NCBI GenBank assembly: GCA_046292385.1
Contig: JBKBRF010000005.1
Coordinates: forward strand, 149,340 to 213,339
From: Armatimonadota bacterium
Lineage (GTDB): Bacteria > Armatimonadota > SYMT01
DNA length: 64,000 nucleotides
Direction of reading: 5' to 3'
Each line of letters opens with the position of its first letter. Position 1 is the stretch's first letter. The position numbers were made by a program. Positions 48,001 through 51,000 of this stretch are shown in pieces.

Positions 48001-51000
48001 GGCGGTTGGGCGGTCCCAGCACGTGGGAGAACCTGGTGGCCTGCTGCCGCCGGTGCAACTCCCGCAAGGGGGACAAGCCGCTGAACCAGTCCGGCATGCG
48101 GCTCAAGAAGGAGCCGCGCCGCCCGCGGTTCATCCCGTACATCAGCCTGGCGAAGTACGTGTCCGGGCAGAAGAACGAGACGTGGCGGCCGTACCTGCCG
48201 GTGCCGAACGGCTTCGGCGAGATGCCGATGCTCTAACCCGCGGCCCGCCCTCGCGTCCGAGGGGGAGCGCATGCCTTAACCGGCAGCGCTCCCCTACCTC
48301 TCTCCGCGCCACTCCCCAAGCGCGTTTCCCGAGTGCATCGCCGTGAACGAACCGGTTCTGCGAGAACTGTACCAGTCGCTCGACCAGCGCTGGCGGCCGG
48401 AGAACGTGGCGGAGAAGCTCCAGCAGCTTCTGGGCGCAGAGGCGGACCGCAGCACCGCAGCTCGCCTCCGTAAGGTGGCGGAGCACGCTCGTCCGACCTG
48501 GTGGACCTCCTGGCTCAGCTCGATGCCCGAAGACTTCGCGCGTCCCGTCGGCATGGGCCGGCAGCTGGAGCGAGCACGAGTCCTGTTCGACACCCCAGAG
48601 CGCCCTGGCGACCTGAACCTGGTCGGCATCCGCGAGTACCTGGAGACGATCAGCGCCCGGATCGTGAAGAGCGTCGGGCACAGCGACTTCAAGGCGGATC
48701 GGCTCAACCGGACGCAGCGCCGGGAAGCGGGCCTGGGAGAGATCTCACGACGCCGCTACAACAAGCTGTTCCGACTCGCCGGCCGGATGGAGCAGAAACT
48801 CGCGCAGCTCGCCCGGGAATTGGAGAAGCGAGAGTTCACTCTCGTCAGCAAGAGTCGCCTCGCCTCCCGTCTCACCTGGGAGGAGTTCTCCCAGGACCGG
48901 AACACGGCGTGCTTCCTGGCCTATTACGTTGCCCGGTGCAACCTGCGGAGTGAGTTCACCATCTCCGGACAACAGAAGCCGTACGATGAGCTCTGCGACG
49001 CGCTCTTCCAGCGCTGCCGCGCCTCCGCCACGACGAACTGGTGGGCCCTGGCGCACGCGTTTCCCGACCGGGAGGTTCTGGAGCACCTGACCGAGGAGCA
49101 GAAGGGCTGGCTGCTGGGCATGTGGTACGACGTCCTCTACCGCATCGGCCGGCTGCTCCATCGTACCTGGGAGCGGAGCAGCATCAACCGCGAGACGATG
49201 ATCGTCCGCCGCGGGAACGACTCCTCTACCTGGAACATTACGGCCGGAGCCTGGAACCGGGCGCGCGAGGGGTGGATCGCCGTCGTCTACGCGCTGGGGA
49301 TGGAGGAGATCCTGGAGCGCCAGTGTCTCGGCAAGGTGCTGCGACTGATGGCGGCCGACGTGGCTCGCTGGCACCGAGTCAGCGGTGGGGATCTCGACCC
49401 GGATACGAAGGTCTGGGCCGAGCTACCCCTGCCGTGGGACGTGCTCTCCGGCGAGGCGGAATGCTCTCGCGCACAGGTAGAGGCAGTCTGTGGCCGACAT
49501 GGAGTCGACCCGGTGAAGAAAGGCTGGGCGGCACCGCGGCCCGGGCGCCAGGTACAGGCCTTTCGGCCCACGCCGGAGCTGGTCCACGGCGTCGCTATCG
49601 CCAGTCCGGAGTTGGCGACGCTGCTGCGAAAGGCCGGCTGGTTCTCCGCCAAGGTCGCGCGACCGGTGGAGAGAGAGGTGGTGGTTCTCCGGGACGAGTA
49701 TGGCTTCGCGCTCGGCGCTGCGGATCGGGAGAGCCTGATGGGCCGCGAAGACGGCGACGAGTGACGGGCAAGCGCGGAAGATCGGCCGTAGCGCCCCCTA
49801 CGGCCGGGGTAGCTCAGTGGTAGAGCGGTCGGCTCTCTAACCGACTGGACGCTGGTTCGAGCCCAGCCCCCGGCCCTGCAGAATGTCGCGTGGGAGATAG
49901 CTCAGTGGTAGAGCGCCCGGCTCGAAACCCGGGTGGACGCTGGTTCGAGCCCAGCTCTCCCGCATCCTGGAGCGAGCGCGAATGCGGTGAGGTTGCCGCA
50001 GCGTCGCCCCGGACTGGCCCTTGCCTGCCGGTAGGAACCTTTATGTCACCTTCTCAGGCAGCCTGCGAGCCGCTTTTCGACGGGCTCGAAGCTCTGGACC
50101 GGGAGGCGGCGCCGCTGGGGCTCTACGCCTCCGAAGAATACCGGGCCAACGGTGAGCCGTTCGGCCGGCTGCACCACGAGTGGCATCGAGCGCTGAAGCC
50201 GACGCTCGAGCGGTGGGGCTGCCATGACCTCTGGTGGCGGGCGCCGCATCGCCGGTACGACGCCGTCCACCACTTCGGCGGCACGGCGGCTGACGGATCG
50301 GAAGTGACGATAGCAGCCGTCAAGCTCTCCAAGATCAAGGTCCGCCGCTTCGGCTCCGCCTACCGTGTTGACCCACAGCGCGACTTTTCCGACCGCTGGG
50401 AGGAGCTGGGACTCCGCCGCCGTCTCTCCGAGCTCTGGAAGCCTCCCGAGTACTCCCGGAGGAAACACTACCGGGACCTCGTCCTGCTGATCGGCTTCGC
50501 GCGCGAGCCGGACCCGTTCCGCGCGGAGCTCGATGAGCTGCGAGTAGACCTGAATTGGGAACAGCGCGGTGTCGTCTGCCACACCCGCAGCTGGGAGGAC
50601 CGCTACGACCGGCGCTTCCAGGTGCTTCTCTGCGCCTGGATCCGCGCGGACGGGCTGGGGATCGAGCTGCCCTGAGCCAGGACCGGTGCGCAGCGGCAGA
50701 TCATCCGGCGAGCGCAACCGAAAGTAGAGGTTCTACGTTCTTCTGGACGGGGAAGATTTGCCACGGCCCCGGGGAGAGGTGCTTCCGGAGACCGTGCCCG
50801 TCGATCGCCTTCCACCGCTGATGCACGAGGAGACCACGCATGCCGCAGTGTCCCACCTGTGGTTCTGAAGTAGCCGCCGACGCCGAATTCTGCCCGGACT
50901 GCGGGACCGACCTGCAGTCCGCTCCTACGACCCCGGCTGCTCCTGCGCCCGCCGCGGAAGCACCGGCAGGCGCCGAGACGGGCGTCGGCGCCGCAGCCGC

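What a model noticed while it worked through the whole genome (the two positions that open the first line are those of the whole stretch)
48343..49964. Conserved unit of an unknown protein gene plus non-canonical tRNAs (8-nt CUC anticodon loop, 8-bp acceptor stem)
A 473-aa protein that no family library names is followed 39 nt downstream by two tandem tRNA genes. Both tRNAs have 8-nt anticodon loops that begin CUC and an extra G-1:C73 pair. The same protein-plus-odd-tRNA unit recurs in distant phyla and in metagenomes, with no other conserved neighbour. It is therefore a self-contained, horizontally spread protein-RNA unit. Its function is unknown.
Evidence so far: - **tRNA calls:** aragorn gives 4-base anticodons. 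Rfam tRNA scores are 60.0 and 55.9 bits, each with one inserted loop base. G-1:C73 is present, as in the genuine tRNA-His. - **The protein:** no Pfam, NCBIfam or PDB match. 1631 homologues, none named. - **Other genomes:** 11 of 27 pattern hits in species genomes are tRNAs with the same scaffold, in at least 9 lineages. Protein homologues (45-59% identity) in 4 of 5 such genomes are each followed within 26-123 nt by such tRNAs. - **Metagenome loci:** 75 of 77 have a same-strand tRNA within 700 nt downstream, and 40 have an 8-nt loop. - **Family traits:** loops nearly all start CUC. -1:73 is paired in 87 of 105 module tRNAs against 5 of 14 or [...]
(Added by a program. Inside this text positions count along the whole contig: contig position 149,340 is position 1 of the stretch shown here. 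"Call 12" and the like, gene names such as g00115 and contig names such as C1 are that model's own, and its searches are not shown. The text may have been shortened before it was handed on; [...] marks where a part breaks off. The agent that wrote the report below was given it as the finding of a first reader that could run no searches.)

Follow-up and report, generated by a model that had tools for sequence, protein, structure and literature searches.

The report
Unknown protein with private tRNA look-alikes
A protein of no known family always travels with its own oddly built tRNA-shaped RNAs through bacteria, plasmids and large phages, sometimes beside RNA-repair genes, so it probably belongs to the fights over cutting and mending tRNAs and not to ordinary protein synthesis.

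Summary
Window 48343-49764 encodes a 473-aa protein with no Pfam, NCBIfam, PHROG or PADLOC match. It is followed by two tRNA-shaped genes (49802-49875, 49890-49963) with 8-nt loops CUCUCUAA and CUCGAAAC and a G-1:C73 pair.

A model built from 120 such tRNAs finds one beside the gene in all 80 species-genome loci, all 18 viral loci (three weakly) and 76 of 80 metagenome loci. Neither part occurs in 60 relatives. The fold (pLDDT 95.8) matches no solved structure; only two giant-virus proteins resemble it.

New here:
- The extra pair is N-1:N73 of any type (86 of 120). It is not a histidine mark.
- The lower anticodon stem and C32-U/A33-C34 never vary. The rest of the loop drifts like spacer DNA, yet usually copies real anticodon loops.
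- The unit sits inside phage tRNA arrays.
- In about 11 of 178 loci it sits beside RNA-repair genes (Hen1-Pnkp, Thg1-like, RtcA).

Best reading (about 0.35): a protein-RNA particle of non-decoding tRNA mimics that acts in tRNA damage and repair conflicts. A toxin with an RNA antidote, or recoding tRNAs, are not excluded. No published description was found.

The parts
48343..49764 (+). Gene for the 473-aa protein (P0001). It has a new, mostly helical fold with a small C-terminal beta part. The most conserved motifs are RGxDSSTWNxxAGAWN (residues 289-305) and GKVxRLMAADVAxWH (330-344).
   Evidence: ORF and translation. No family hit. Conserved columns. AlphaFold2 pLDDT 95.8, pTM 0.93. No PDB fold match. 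Two giant-virus structural relatives.
49802..49875 (+). tRNA-shaped RNA 1, from G-1 to C73, with an 8-bp acceptor stem.
   Evidence: ARAGORN. Rfam tRNA 60.0 bits. Model R1 97.6 bits. Parse.
49833..49840 (+). 8-nt anticodon loop CUCUCUAA of RNA 1. It equals the host tRNA-Arg(UCU) loop CUUCUAA with a C inserted after U33.
   Evidence: Sequence, parse, host loops.
49890..49963 (+). tRNA-shaped RNA 2, from G-1 to C73, with an 8-bp acceptor stem whose 1:72 pair is U:G.
   Evidence: ARAGORN. Rfam tRNA 55.9 bits. Model R1 90.7 bits. Parse.
49921..49928 (+). 8-nt anticodon loop CUCGAAAC of RNA 2. It resembles the host Phe loop CUGAAAA with an added C, or the host Ser(CGA) loop CUCGAAA plus a C.
   Evidence: Sequence, parse, host loops.

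Best explanation
The unit encodes a protein-RNA particle. It does not add decoding capacity.

**Proposed steps (inferred unless marked otherwise):**
1. The protein gene and its one to four tRNA-shaped RNAs are made as one transcript. The RNAs are cut out as L-shaped molecules with an 8-bp acceptor stem.
2. The protein holds them by the parts that never vary: the lower anticodon stem (C29-G30-G31 with C39-C40-G41) and C32-U/A33-C34. It probably also gauges the lengthened acceptor end.
3. The rest of the loop copies anticodon loops of real tRNAs, often as a normal loop with one C inserted after U33. Its identity is free to change.
4. These RNAs serve as look-alike substrates (bait or decoy) for enzymes that cut tRNA anticodon loops. 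The protein acts as their holder, sensor or processing enzyme.
5. The unit therefore belongs to the conflicts over tRNA damage and repair between bacteria, their competitors and phages.

**Shown:** the strict pairing of the two parts, the conservation pattern, the genomic contexts and the absence of a known fold.
**Inferred:** binding, processing and the bait role.
For: **Strict pairing.**
- A module tRNA lies next to the gene in 80 of 80 genome loci, in 18 of 18 viral loci (three of them only at 36-53 bits) and in 76 of 80 metagenome loci.
- Three of the four metagenome misses end within 136 nt of the gene.
- The protein is in 0 of 60 relatives. No tRNA above 76.7 bits occurs in those 60.

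**Co-transcription is likely.** The partners lie on the same strand. The median gap from stop codon to tRNA is 9.5 nt, and the stop codon overlaps the tRNA in 21 of 76 loci.

**RNA under structural selection.**
- 98.2% of pair cells are paired and 16 of 22 pairs show changes on both sides.
- Positions beyond the general tRNA consensus are fixed: G30, G31, C39, C40, C32 and C34 in 120 of 120.

**Loop identity is not held.**
- Among 129 tRNA pairs whose bodies differ at 4 or fewer of 64 sites, the variable loop part differs at 39% per site, and 45 pairs differ in length.
- In 19 locus pairs, by my sum of the table, it changes at about 27%, against about 19% for the upstream spacer and 0-5% for the body in most pairs.
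- The commonest loop type, CUCU(N)GGA, keeps everything but N across phyla and phages.

**Loops still mimic real ones.**
- The next-to-last base is a purine in 39 of 51 7-nt loops and 48 of 63 8-nt loops. In all 48 it is G after G and A after U, C or A.
- The window's first loop equals the host Arg-UCU loop plus one C.

**Traits that argue against decoding.**
- N73 is paired in 86 of 120, against 16 of 44 ordinary tRNAs.
- A33 occurs in 12 of 120.
- There is no codon tracking in the partner gene: 26 up and 25 down, 25 and 32, 19 and 34.

**Context.**
- The unit lies inside tRNA arrays of phage-like contigs.
- Hen1-Pnkp lies beside it in L002, L006, L037, L053, L054 and L110, with a Hen1 remnant in L060.
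- Thg1-like genes lie beside it in L006, L025 and L089/L136, with an AAA_33 kinase in L006 and L025. RtcA lies beside it in L041 and L121.
- Immunity-type and mobile genes are frequent neighbours.
- By my arithmetic, a 12-kb locus in a roughly 7-Mb genome should hold a given single-copy operon in about 0.1 of 80 loci. Five intact Hen1-Pnkp operons were seen.
Against: - There are no expression, processing, charging or binding data. No RNA run holds the stretch.
- The protein has no recognisable nuclease, ligase or RNA-binding domain, so its activity is open.
- RNA-repair genes lie beside the unit in only about 11 of 178 loci. In the window itself they do not: the genome's Pnkp is on another contig.
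- At genome level Pnkp is no commoner with the module (27 of 51, including five picked for adjacency) than in relatives without it (11 of 30).
- The protein is well conserved, at 45-60% identity across phyla. That is unusual for arms-race proteins.
- Purine-37 loops that obey the decoding rule fit working decoders as well as mimics.
- The structural relatives in giant viruses of eukaryotes suggest a general tRNA function and not a bacterial defence role.
- My tRNA parser required well-paired stems and preferred loops that start CU. The pairing percentage is therefore partly selected. The -1:73 count is not.
Confidence: 0.35

Rival explanations
1. A toxin with an RNA antidote. The protein is itself a tRNA-cutting or tRNA-blocking toxin. 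The tRNA look-alikes are uncleavable pseudo-substrates that keep it quiet until transcription stops, for example on phage infection.
For: The pairing is near-obligate, and only one locus with room lacks a tRNA: L146. The loops mimic real ones. The unit occurs on plasmids and phages and in variable islands. Repair genes nearby could undo self-inflicted damage.
Against: The RNA genes usually lie downstream of the protein gene on one transcript. That gives no excess of antidote, unlike known RNA-antitoxin pairs (my recollection of ToxIN). The protein is large and highly conserved with no nuclease fold detected. L146, and L100 with only a weak hit, carry the protein without a good tRNA.
Confidence: 0.15
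2. Working adaptors. The RNAs are charged, by the partner protein or by host enzymes, and read codons. The 7-nt loops would act as C34 missense or ordinary decoders. The 8-nt loops would act as +1 frameshift or quadruplet decoders, giving deliberate recoding or mistranslation.
For: Rfam tRNA scores are high and all elbow bases are intact. A purine at the position-37 equivalent with the right identity occurs in 87 of 114 loops of 7 or 8 nt. The fourth loop base is U or G in 113 of 120, as wobble bases are. The window loops contain the UCU and GAA anticodons of host tRNAs. The unit sits among phage tRNA genes.
Against: Loop identity and length drift at about the rate of spacer DNA. One in four loops has a pyrimidine at 37. 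A33 occurs in 12 of 120. N73 is paired in 86 of 120. Position 3:70 is never G:U, there is no long variable arm, and G-1:C73 occurs in only 12 rows, so no anticodon-independent host identity set fits (identity rules are recalled). There is no codon tracking. The partner ORFs are intact, with no frameshift sites. The protein has no class I or class II synthetase fold.
Confidence: 0.13
3. A repair or maturation enzyme with its own substrates. The protein is a new tRNA end- or loop-processing enzyme. The linked RNAs are spare 'pro-tRNAs' that become usable after processing, for example by removal of the extra C after U33 and resealing by Pnkp or RtcB-type ligases.
For: Deleting the third loop base of the 8-nt loops gives a canonical 7-nt loop in 48 of 63. 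In the window it gives exactly the host Arg-UCU loop. Neighbours include Hen1-Pnkp, Thg1-like plus kinase, and RtcA. The unit lies in phage tRNA arrays and has giant-virus relatives.
Against: 51 of 120 loops are already 7 nt and would become 6 nt. The 8-bp stem and the variable identity remain unexplained. Most loci have no ligase nearby.
Confidence: 0.1
4. A selfish element. The protein is a homing or transposition enzyme that targets tRNA genes, and the tRNA copies are carried along passively.
For: Distribution is patchy: 0 of 60 relatives carry it. Neighbours differ in every lineage. Homing nucleases are known in phage tRNA clusters (recalled), and an HNH gene lies in the L090 array.
Against: The RNA body is under strong purifying selection with compensatory changes, while only part of the loop drifts. 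No flanking repeats or nuclease or recombinase domains were found. The ORF stop codon is built into the tRNA in 21 of 76 loci, which points to joint expression.
Confidence: 0.04

Closest known systems
Ro60 (Rsr) with Y RNA YrlA in the bacterial rsr-yrlBA-rtcBA RNA-repair operon (recalled; the operon paper, Hughes et al. 2020, was seen only as a citation)
   Same: A mostly helical RNA-binding protein is encoded next to a non-coding RNA with a tRNA-like shape, and sometimes next to RNA-repair enzymes.
   Different: No TROVE or vWA domain and no Ro-like fold hit. The RNAs here are complete cloverleaves that score 56-60 bits on the Rfam tRNA model, not a Y RNA with a tRNA-like module. The repair partners are Hen1-Pnkp, Thg1-like and RtcA, and only in a minority of loci.
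Phage tRNAs with altered anticodon loops that escape anticodon nucleases (abstract of PMC10264068 and search listings of PMC11464382 and PMC11555353)
   Same: tRNA genes in phage arrays whose anticodon loops deviate from host loops, in the setting of tRNA-cutting defences.
   Different: Those are working decoders without a dedicated protein. Here a conserved protein always comes along, the loops vary in length from 6 to 9 nt, and the acceptor stem has 8 bp.
Dedicated enzyme-tRNA pairs that move together, such as PylRS-tRNAPyl and ProRSx-tRNAProA (recalled, not read here)
   Same: A protein gene and an odd tRNA gene lie adjacent and spread horizontally as one unit.
   Different: Those proteins are class II synthetases. 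This one has no synthetase domain or fold. The anticodon part is not fixed.
tRNA-His, bacterial tRNA-Sec (8/5) and allo-tRNAs (8/4, 9/3); PMC7609411 passages, remainder recalled
   Same: An acceptor helix lengthened to 8 bp.
   Different: The extra pair is of any type. The T-stem has 5 bp. There is no long variable arm, no 6-bp D-stem and no GUG or UCA anticodon.
Type III toxin-antitoxin pairs such as ToxIN (recalled)
   Same: A protein and a small structured RNA are encoded together, and the RNA is specific to its protein.
   Different: There, short RNA repeats precede a small endoribonuclease of about 170 aa. Here, full tRNAs usually follow a protein of about 450 aa with no known fold.

Membership tests
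Canonical elongator tRNA (decoder) | Cloverleaf with conserved elbow bases, scoring above the Rfam tRNA threshold | tested here: met
   60.0 and 55.9 bits against a threshold of 29. G18, G19, T54, T55 and C56 are invariant in 120 of 120.
Canonical elongator tRNA (decoder) | 7-nt anticodon loop with U33 and a purine at 37 | tested here: not met
   Both window loops have 8 nt. Family-wide the lengths are 8 nt in 63, 7 nt in 51, 6 nt in 4 and 9 nt in 2. A33 occurs in 12 of 120. The next-to-last base is a pyrimidine in 27 of 114 loops of 7 or 8 nt.
Canonical elongator tRNA (decoder) | 7-bp acceptor stem with a free discriminator base 73 | tested here: not met
   G-1:C73 is present in both window RNAs. 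N-1:N73 is pairable in 86 of 120 module tRNAs, against 16 of 44 ordinary tRNAs of the same genome.
tRNA-His | G-1 (with C73 in bacteria) together with a GUG anticodon | tested here: not met
   G-1:C73 is present in the window, but the loops are CUCUCUAA and CUCGAAAC. The genome has its own tRNA-His(GUG). Across the family only 12 of 117 rows have G:C at -1:73.
Bacterial tRNA-Sec and allo-tRNA | 8/5, 8/4 or 9/3 acceptor/T helices with a long variable arm (and UCA for Sec) | tested here: not met
   The variable region is 4-5 nt, the T-stem 5 bp and the D-stem 4 bp. Only the 8-bp acceptor is shared.
Zorya ZorC (EH signature domain), the name given by UniRef to one homologue | Match to the EH_Signature domain model | tested here: not met
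   0 of 88 family members match it at E of 1 or lower; only weak GYF_2 hits appear, in 6 of 88. PADLOC found no Zorya model. No MotAB-like neighbour was seen.
Aminoacyl-tRNA synthetases (class I or II) | Rossmann-fold or class II catalytic domain recognisable by profile or fold | tested here: inconclusive
   No Pfam or NCBIfam hit. The model is mostly helical with few strands. Foldseek against PDB gave nothing at E of 1e-3 or lower. VIA best Z was 6.9 for the whole model and 2.9 for the C-terminal half. A missing fold match is not proof.
Ro60/Y RNA particle | TROVE domain protein plus Y RNA | tested here: not met
   No TROVE hit. No Y RNA or YrlA hit at E of 1 or lower in 47000-51500. The fold searches list no Ro chain; that absence alone is inconclusive.
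Pnkp-Hen1 RNA-repair cassette (as an accessory component) | Encoded in or next to the hen1-pnkp operon | tested here: inconclusive
   Adjacent in L002, L006, L037, L053, L054 and L110, plus a remnant in L060, out of 178 loci. It is not adjacent in the window. G000's Pnkp lies on contig C64.
Type III toxin-antitoxin | The protein is a toxic endoribonuclease neutralised by its own RNA | not testable with these tools
   This needs expression and cleavage assays. The gene order (RNA mostly downstream) differs from the ToxIN layout as I recall it.

The most novel reading that the evidence does not exclude
The protein is a new-fold enzyme that loads or uses its own orthogonal tRNA scaffold. The loops with a C inserted after U33 would then be natural +1 frameshift or quadruplet decoders, making the unit a portable add-on to the genetic code carried by bacteria, jumbo phages and giant viruses. 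The evidence does not exclude this: the cloverleaf and elbow are intact, a purine sits at the position-37 equivalent with the right identity in 87 of 114 loops, and the fourth loop base is wobble-like U or G in 113 of 120.
Probability: 0.06. Interest if true: 0.95.

Novelty: categorically new. Interest (0 to 1): 0.82.

Why it matters
**Scale.** The protein family has at least 1632 members in one search and 443 clusters at 50% identity. It spans at least 11 bacterial phyla, Streptomyces plasmids, large phages and, by structure, giant viruses. It has no name, no known fold and no paper that I could find in nine searches.

**What sets it apart.** It is tied to a private, co-evolving tRNA-shaped RNA more tightly than almost any known protein-RNA gene pair outside CRISPR and the toxin-RNA systems.

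**If the RNAs are baits or decoys for anticodon nucleases.** This would be a new principle in the fights over tRNA integrity. It would also give the Hen1-Pnkp and Thg1-like repair enzymes, whose natural substrates are still unknown, a testable partner.

**If the RNAs decode.** It would be a natural system of expanded anticodon loops.

**Practical point.** Genome annotators currently label these genes as tRNA-Lys, -Gln, -Thr, -Met, even -Pyl, or as undetermined. That distorts tRNA gene counts in thousands of genomes.

Tried and rejected
**Family and structure searches that found nothing**
- Pfam, NCBIfam, PHROGs and PADLOC on the protein.
- Pfam on all 88 aligned members.
- The PDB sequence profile, best E 2.
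- Foldseek against PDB.
- VIA-align wide on the whole model: best Z 6.9, only helical hairpins and four-helix bundles.
- VIA-align wide on residues 280-473: best Z 2.9.
- ESM Atlas: no usable feature hit, and its own model was poor.
- The N-terminal 250 residues were not folded or searched on their own.

**Sequence-collection searches**
- Fused longer forms: none, which is weak evidence.
- INPHARED phages by tblastn: none.

**Expression**

**Regulatory and structural scans**
- The promoter and terminator scan of 47900-50400 found no promoter-like site.
- Folding 49760-49990 gave a z-score of 0.39. Neither result was informative.

**Ideas tested and dropped**
- The neighbouring TrpRS-type gene (45185-46237) is not part of the unit. 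It is conserved in relatives that lack the unit.
- Histidine identity is rejected: G:C at -1:73 occurs in only 12 of 117 rows.
- Codon supply to the partner gene shows no tracking.
- Genome-level co-occurrence with Pnkp does not discriminate: 27 of 51 against 11 of 30.

**Tool failures and gaps**
- My first two regex parsers failed for technical reasons and were replaced.
- Earlier findings of the scan were not open.
- Burroughs and Aravind 2016, on RNA repair systems, could not be read. It may already mention this neighbourhood.

**Papers**
- Nine searches gave no description of the unit.
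Full report
**1. What is in the window**

An ORF runs from 48343 (GTG) to 49764 on the + strand and encodes 473 aa. Two tRNA-shaped genes follow it.
- ARAGORN reports 4-base anticodons ctct and cgaa.
- Rfam's tRNA model scores 60.0 and 55.9 bits, with inserted loop bases.
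- Parsed by hand and by script, RNA 1 is 49803-49874 plus C73 at 49875. Its loop is CUCUCUAA (49833-49840).
- RNA 2 is 49891-49962 plus C73 at 49963. Its loop is CUCGAAAC (49921-49928).
- In both, the base before position 1 is G and pairs with C73.
- The spacers are 38 nt (stop codon to RNA 1) and 14 nt (C73 of RNA 1 to G-1 of RNA 2).

**2. The protein**

Sequence libraries give nothing.
- No family matches in Pfam, NCBIfam, PHROGs or PADLOC.
- A profile of 88 members finds nothing among PDB sequences (best E 2).

The family is large.
- The word-indexed search finds 1632 proteins at E of 1e-3 or lower.
- The exhaustive search finds 443 representatives at 50% identity.
- Every source name is 'hypothetical', except one UniRef label, 'Zorya protein ZorC EH domain-containing'.
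- I could not reproduce that label. None of 88 members matches that domain, and PADLOC finds no Zorya model.

The predicted structure is confident but unmatched.
- With the alignment, AlphaFold2 gives pLDDT 95.8 and pTM 0.93. The model is mostly helical, with a long helical hairpin (residues 251-317) and a small beta part at the C-terminus.
- Foldseek against PDB gives no hit at E of 1e-3 or lower.
- VIA-align against 48,161 chains gives a best Z of 6.9 over 95 residues, with only generic helical matches.
- The conserved half, residues 280-473, folded alone (pLDDT 82) gives a best Z of 2.9.
- The only clear structural relatives are two uncharacterised proteins of the giant viruses Edafosvirus and Yasminevirus in BFVD (E 4.3e-16 and 3.7e-12, TM 0.64/0.53 and 0.61/0.53).
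- No longer fused forms were found.
- Invariant or nearly invariant residues cluster in RGxDSSTWNxxAGAWN, GKVxRLMAADVAxWH and TPELVHG.

**3. The pairing of protein and RNA**

*Species genomes.* Scanning one genome per species gave 231 relatives, of which 80 loci were kept. By record title they come from these groups:
- Planctomycetota, Acidobacteriota and Chloroflexota
- Verrucomicrobiota, Cyanobacteria and Deinococcota
- Pseudomonadota, Bacteroidota and Armatimonadota
- Gemmatimonadota and Myxococcota

ARAGORN finds a same-strand tRNA just after the gene in 79 of the 80.

*Covariance model.* I aligned 120 of these tRNAs and built model R1.
- R1 finds a hit next to the gene in all 80, including L064 at 65 bits.
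- It finds a hit in all 18 IMG/VR loci. L100 reaches only 36 bits, and L104 and L106 reach 52-53 bits.
- By my reading of the table, it finds a hit in 76 of 80 metagenome loci.
- Of the four misses, L129, L140 and L176 end within 136 nt after the gene. L146 has 1.2 kb of room and no tRNA.
- In five viral loci (L095, L097, L101, L102, L105) and a few metagenome loci the tRNAs lie just upstream of the gene instead.

*Specificity.*
- In the window's genome only the two window RNAs pass 77 bits (97.6 and 90.7). The next hits are ordinary tRNA-Lys(CUU) at 71.1, tRNA-Gln(CUG) at 71.0 and tRNA-Thr(CGU) at 68.6.
- The protein is absent from all 60 sampled relatives. No tRNA there exceeds 76.7 bits.
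- The flanking TrpRS-type gene and the 313-aa gene at 47331-48272 are conserved in the same family, but on separate contigs and without the unit.

*Layout.*
- Of 76 parsed loci, 41 carry two such tRNAs, 34 carry one and one carries four.
- The gap from stop codon to tRNA has a median of 9.5 nt.
- In 21 of 76 loci the stop codon lies inside the tRNA. In several it is the TAG formed by U8-A9-G10.
- This makes a joint transcript very likely.

**4. Anatomy of the RNAs**

*Body.* All four stems covary. 98.2% of cells are paired, 16 of 22 pairs change on both sides, and no shuffle reaches this. The parser did select for paired stems.

*Extra pair.* The -1:73 pair was not selected for.
- It forms in 86 of 120, with six pair types.
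- In ordinary tRNAs of this genome it is pairable in 16 of 44.
- It is a general 8th acceptor pair and not a tRNA-His mark. CCA is encoded at positions 74-76 in only 9 of 120.

*Fixed positions beyond the usual tRNA invariants.*
- G30, G31, C39, C40, C32 and C34 in 120 of 120.
- C29 in 117 and G41 in 119.
- Position 33 is U in 108 and A in 12.
- The fourth loop base is U in 85 and G in 28.

*The rest of the loop varies.*
- Its length is 8 nt in 63, 7 nt in 51, 6 nt in 4 and 9 nt in 2.
- Among 129 pairs of tRNAs from different loci whose bodies differ at 4 or fewer of 64 sites, the variable loop part differs at 39% per site, and 45 pairs differ in length.
- In 19 close locus pairs, by my sum of the table, it changes at about 27%. 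That is about the rate of the spacers (about 19% upstream). The body changes at 0-5% in most pairs.

*Yet the loops are not random.*
- The next-to-last base is a purine in 39 of 51 7-nt loops and 48 of 63 8-nt loops.
- In all 48 it is G after G and A after U, C or A. This is the relation between positions 36 and 37 that I recall from real tRNAs.
- Read as C-U-C plus a normal anticodon plus two bases, the 8-nt loops carry ordinary anticodons with U or G first.
- The window's CUCUCUAA is the host tRNA-Arg(UCU) loop CUUCUAA with one C added.
- CUCGAAAC is close to the host Phe loop (CUGAAAA) and the host Ser-CGA loop (CUCGAAA).
- The commonest type, CUCU(N)GGA, is kept from Planctomycetota to Bacteroidota and phages, with only N free or absent.

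*No codon tracking.* The codon matching each loop is not enriched in the partner gene.

**5. Surroundings**

*No universal neighbour.* Clustering all ORFs of the 81 loci shows no other gene family in more than 5 loci. The clusters that did recur were informative.

*Hen1-Pnkp, confirmed by Pfam.*
- It lies directly beside the unit in L006 and L037, in the order protein, tRNA, Hen1, Pnkp.
- It lies directly beside the unit in L053 and L054, in the order Hen1, Pnkp, protein, tRNAs.
- It also lies in L002, with a Hen1 remnant in L060. All are on the same strand.
- It is found in metagenome locus L110 as well.

*Other RNA-repair neighbours, from annotation of the nearest neighbours and phmmer.*
- A Thg1-like gene follows the tRNA in L025 and L006. 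In both it is preceded by an AAA_33 kinase.
- A Thg1-like gene lies in the phage tRNA array of L089/L136.
- RtcA lies in L041 and L121.
- A Macro domain gene lies in L021 and L128.

*Conflict-island neighbours.*
- Immunity-type genes: Imm5-like, and SUFU in two loci.
- An RHS protein, NERD and Uma2 nucleases, and Cas4-Cas1.
- Resolvases, a DDE transposase and an integrase.

*Counts and caveats.*
- About 11 of 178 loci, from at least 8 lineages, hold an RNA-end repair gene within a few kb.
- By my arithmetic, about 0.1 of 80 loci would hold a given single-copy operon by chance.
- At whole-genome level Pnkp is common in these large soil-type genomes with or without the unit: 27 of 51 against 11 of 30. 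Only the adjacency counts as evidence.

*Mobile records.*
- The family is on 7 plasmids, 5 of them large Streptomyces plasmids.
- It is not in INPHARED phages.
- It is in 18 IMG/VR contigs, several of 100-435 kb.
- In L090 it follows 21 tRNA genes. That array also holds an HNH nuclease, an endonuclease I-like gene, radical SAM genes, a primase, MazG and an RNase T-like gene.

**6. What it most likely is**

*Shown facts.*
- The two parts are paired obligately.
- The RNA's body, lower anticodon stem and CUC are held under strong selection.
- The rest of the loop has a free but mimic-like character.
- The acceptor stem has 8 bp.
- The protein has a new fold.
- The contexts are tRNA arrays, repair genes and variable islands.

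*Best-fitting reading.* These fit best with a dedicated particle in which the protein grips the fixed part of the anticodon arm of non-decoding tRNA look-alikes. I place its role in the conflicts over tRNA cleavage and repair. The RNAs would act as bait or decoy for anticodon-loop nucleases, and the protein as holder, sensor or processing enzyme. I give this 0.35.

*What keeps the confidence low.*
- There are no data on expression, ends, charging or binding.
- The protein's chemistry is unknown.
- It is unusually well conserved for an arms-race protein.
- Repair genes are absent from most loci, including this window.
- Its relatives in giant viruses hint at a more general tRNA function.

*Rivals.*
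- Toxin with an RNA antidote: 0.15.
- Real decoders or frameshifters with a dedicated enzyme: 0.13.
- Repair or maturation enzyme with spare pro-tRNAs: 0.10.
- Selfish element: 0.04.
- The remainder is for something not yet thought of.

**7. Comparison with what is known**

*Closest in concept.* The Ro60/Y RNA particle of the rsr-yrlBA-rtcBA operon, as I recall it. The domains, the fold and the RNA type all differ.

*What it is not.*
- A tRNA-His, tRNA-Sec or allo-tRNA.
- A recognisable synthetase.
- A Zorya ZorC.

*Literature.*
- Nine full-text searches gave no description.
- From papers I saw passages of PMC7609411, PMC12776372 and PMC3061083. Otherwise I saw only search listings and abstracts.
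- The 2016 survey of RNA repair systems by Burroughs and Aravind is not held. It could bear on the repair-gene neighbourhood.

**8. Verdict**

The unit is real, widespread, tightly co-inherited and undescribed. It lies outside known families, and its setting now points to tRNA damage and repair. Interest is 0.82.

Noticed in passing
window 45185-46237 (-): A class I Trp/Tyr-type tRNA synthetase gene (PF00579, E 3e-75) lies 2 kb upstream on the other strand. It is conserved at 72-80% DNA identity in the same-family relatives that lack the unit, so it is the ordinary housekeeping gene and is not linked.
   Followed up: yes
window 48300-53500: Beyond the 313-aa gene at 47331-48272, which is conserved in relatives, almost nothing up to about 53500 matches the 30 relatives at DNA level. 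The unit may sit in a larger variable island. That stretch includes a 210-aa ORF without family (50043-50675), a zinc-ribbon-FHA gene (50840-51463) and a kinase-PP2C fusion (51313-53325).
   Followed up: partly
window 49783-49805: A perfect 8-bp inverted repeat, GGCCGTAG...CTACGGCC, overlaps G-1 and the first three bases of tRNA 1. It could compete with the acceptor stem. I read it by eye, and the fold of the region was not distinctive.
   Followed up: partly
L022, L023, L028-L031, L033, L077 and others (21 of 76 loci): The stop codon of the protein gene lies inside the tRNA. In some loci it is the TAG made by the conserved U8-A9-G10. Cutting out the tRNA would then leave the message without a stop codon.
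   Followed up: partly
G000 contig C17:39355-39477 and 39689-39812: Two hits of the tRNA model (48 and 61 bits) span about 123 nt each, far longer than a tRNA. ARAGORN calls nothing on that contig. They may be tRNA genes with a large insertion.
   Followed up: no
G000 contigs C11:87434-87532 and C77:16947-17029: ARAGORN calls two tRNA-Sec (tca) genes, and several over-long tRNA calls of 85-97 nt for Thr, Cys and Arg, in this genome. Some may be false calls.
   Followed up: no
L041:4631-5929: One open frame joins phage-integrase N-terminal domains to the C-terminal part of RNA 3'-phosphate cyclase RtcA. It looks as if an integrase-bearing element had landed in rtcA, just upstream of the unit.
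   Followed up: no
L006:6083-7397 and L025:7374-8628: A small AAA_33 kinase gene is followed by a Thg1-like gene in two unrelated lineages (Pyrinomonadaceae, Pirellulaceae), right after the module tRNA. This may be a kinase plus 3'-5' polymerase cassette for mending tRNA 5' ends.
   Followed up: partly
L001-L080 (ARAGORN labels): Standard tRNA finders label these RNAs as tRNA-Lys, -Gln, -Thr, -Met, -Glu, -Arg, -Pro, even -Pyl, or '???'. Public annotations of tRNA sets in the carrier genomes are therefore likely to be wrong for these genes.
   Followed up: partly
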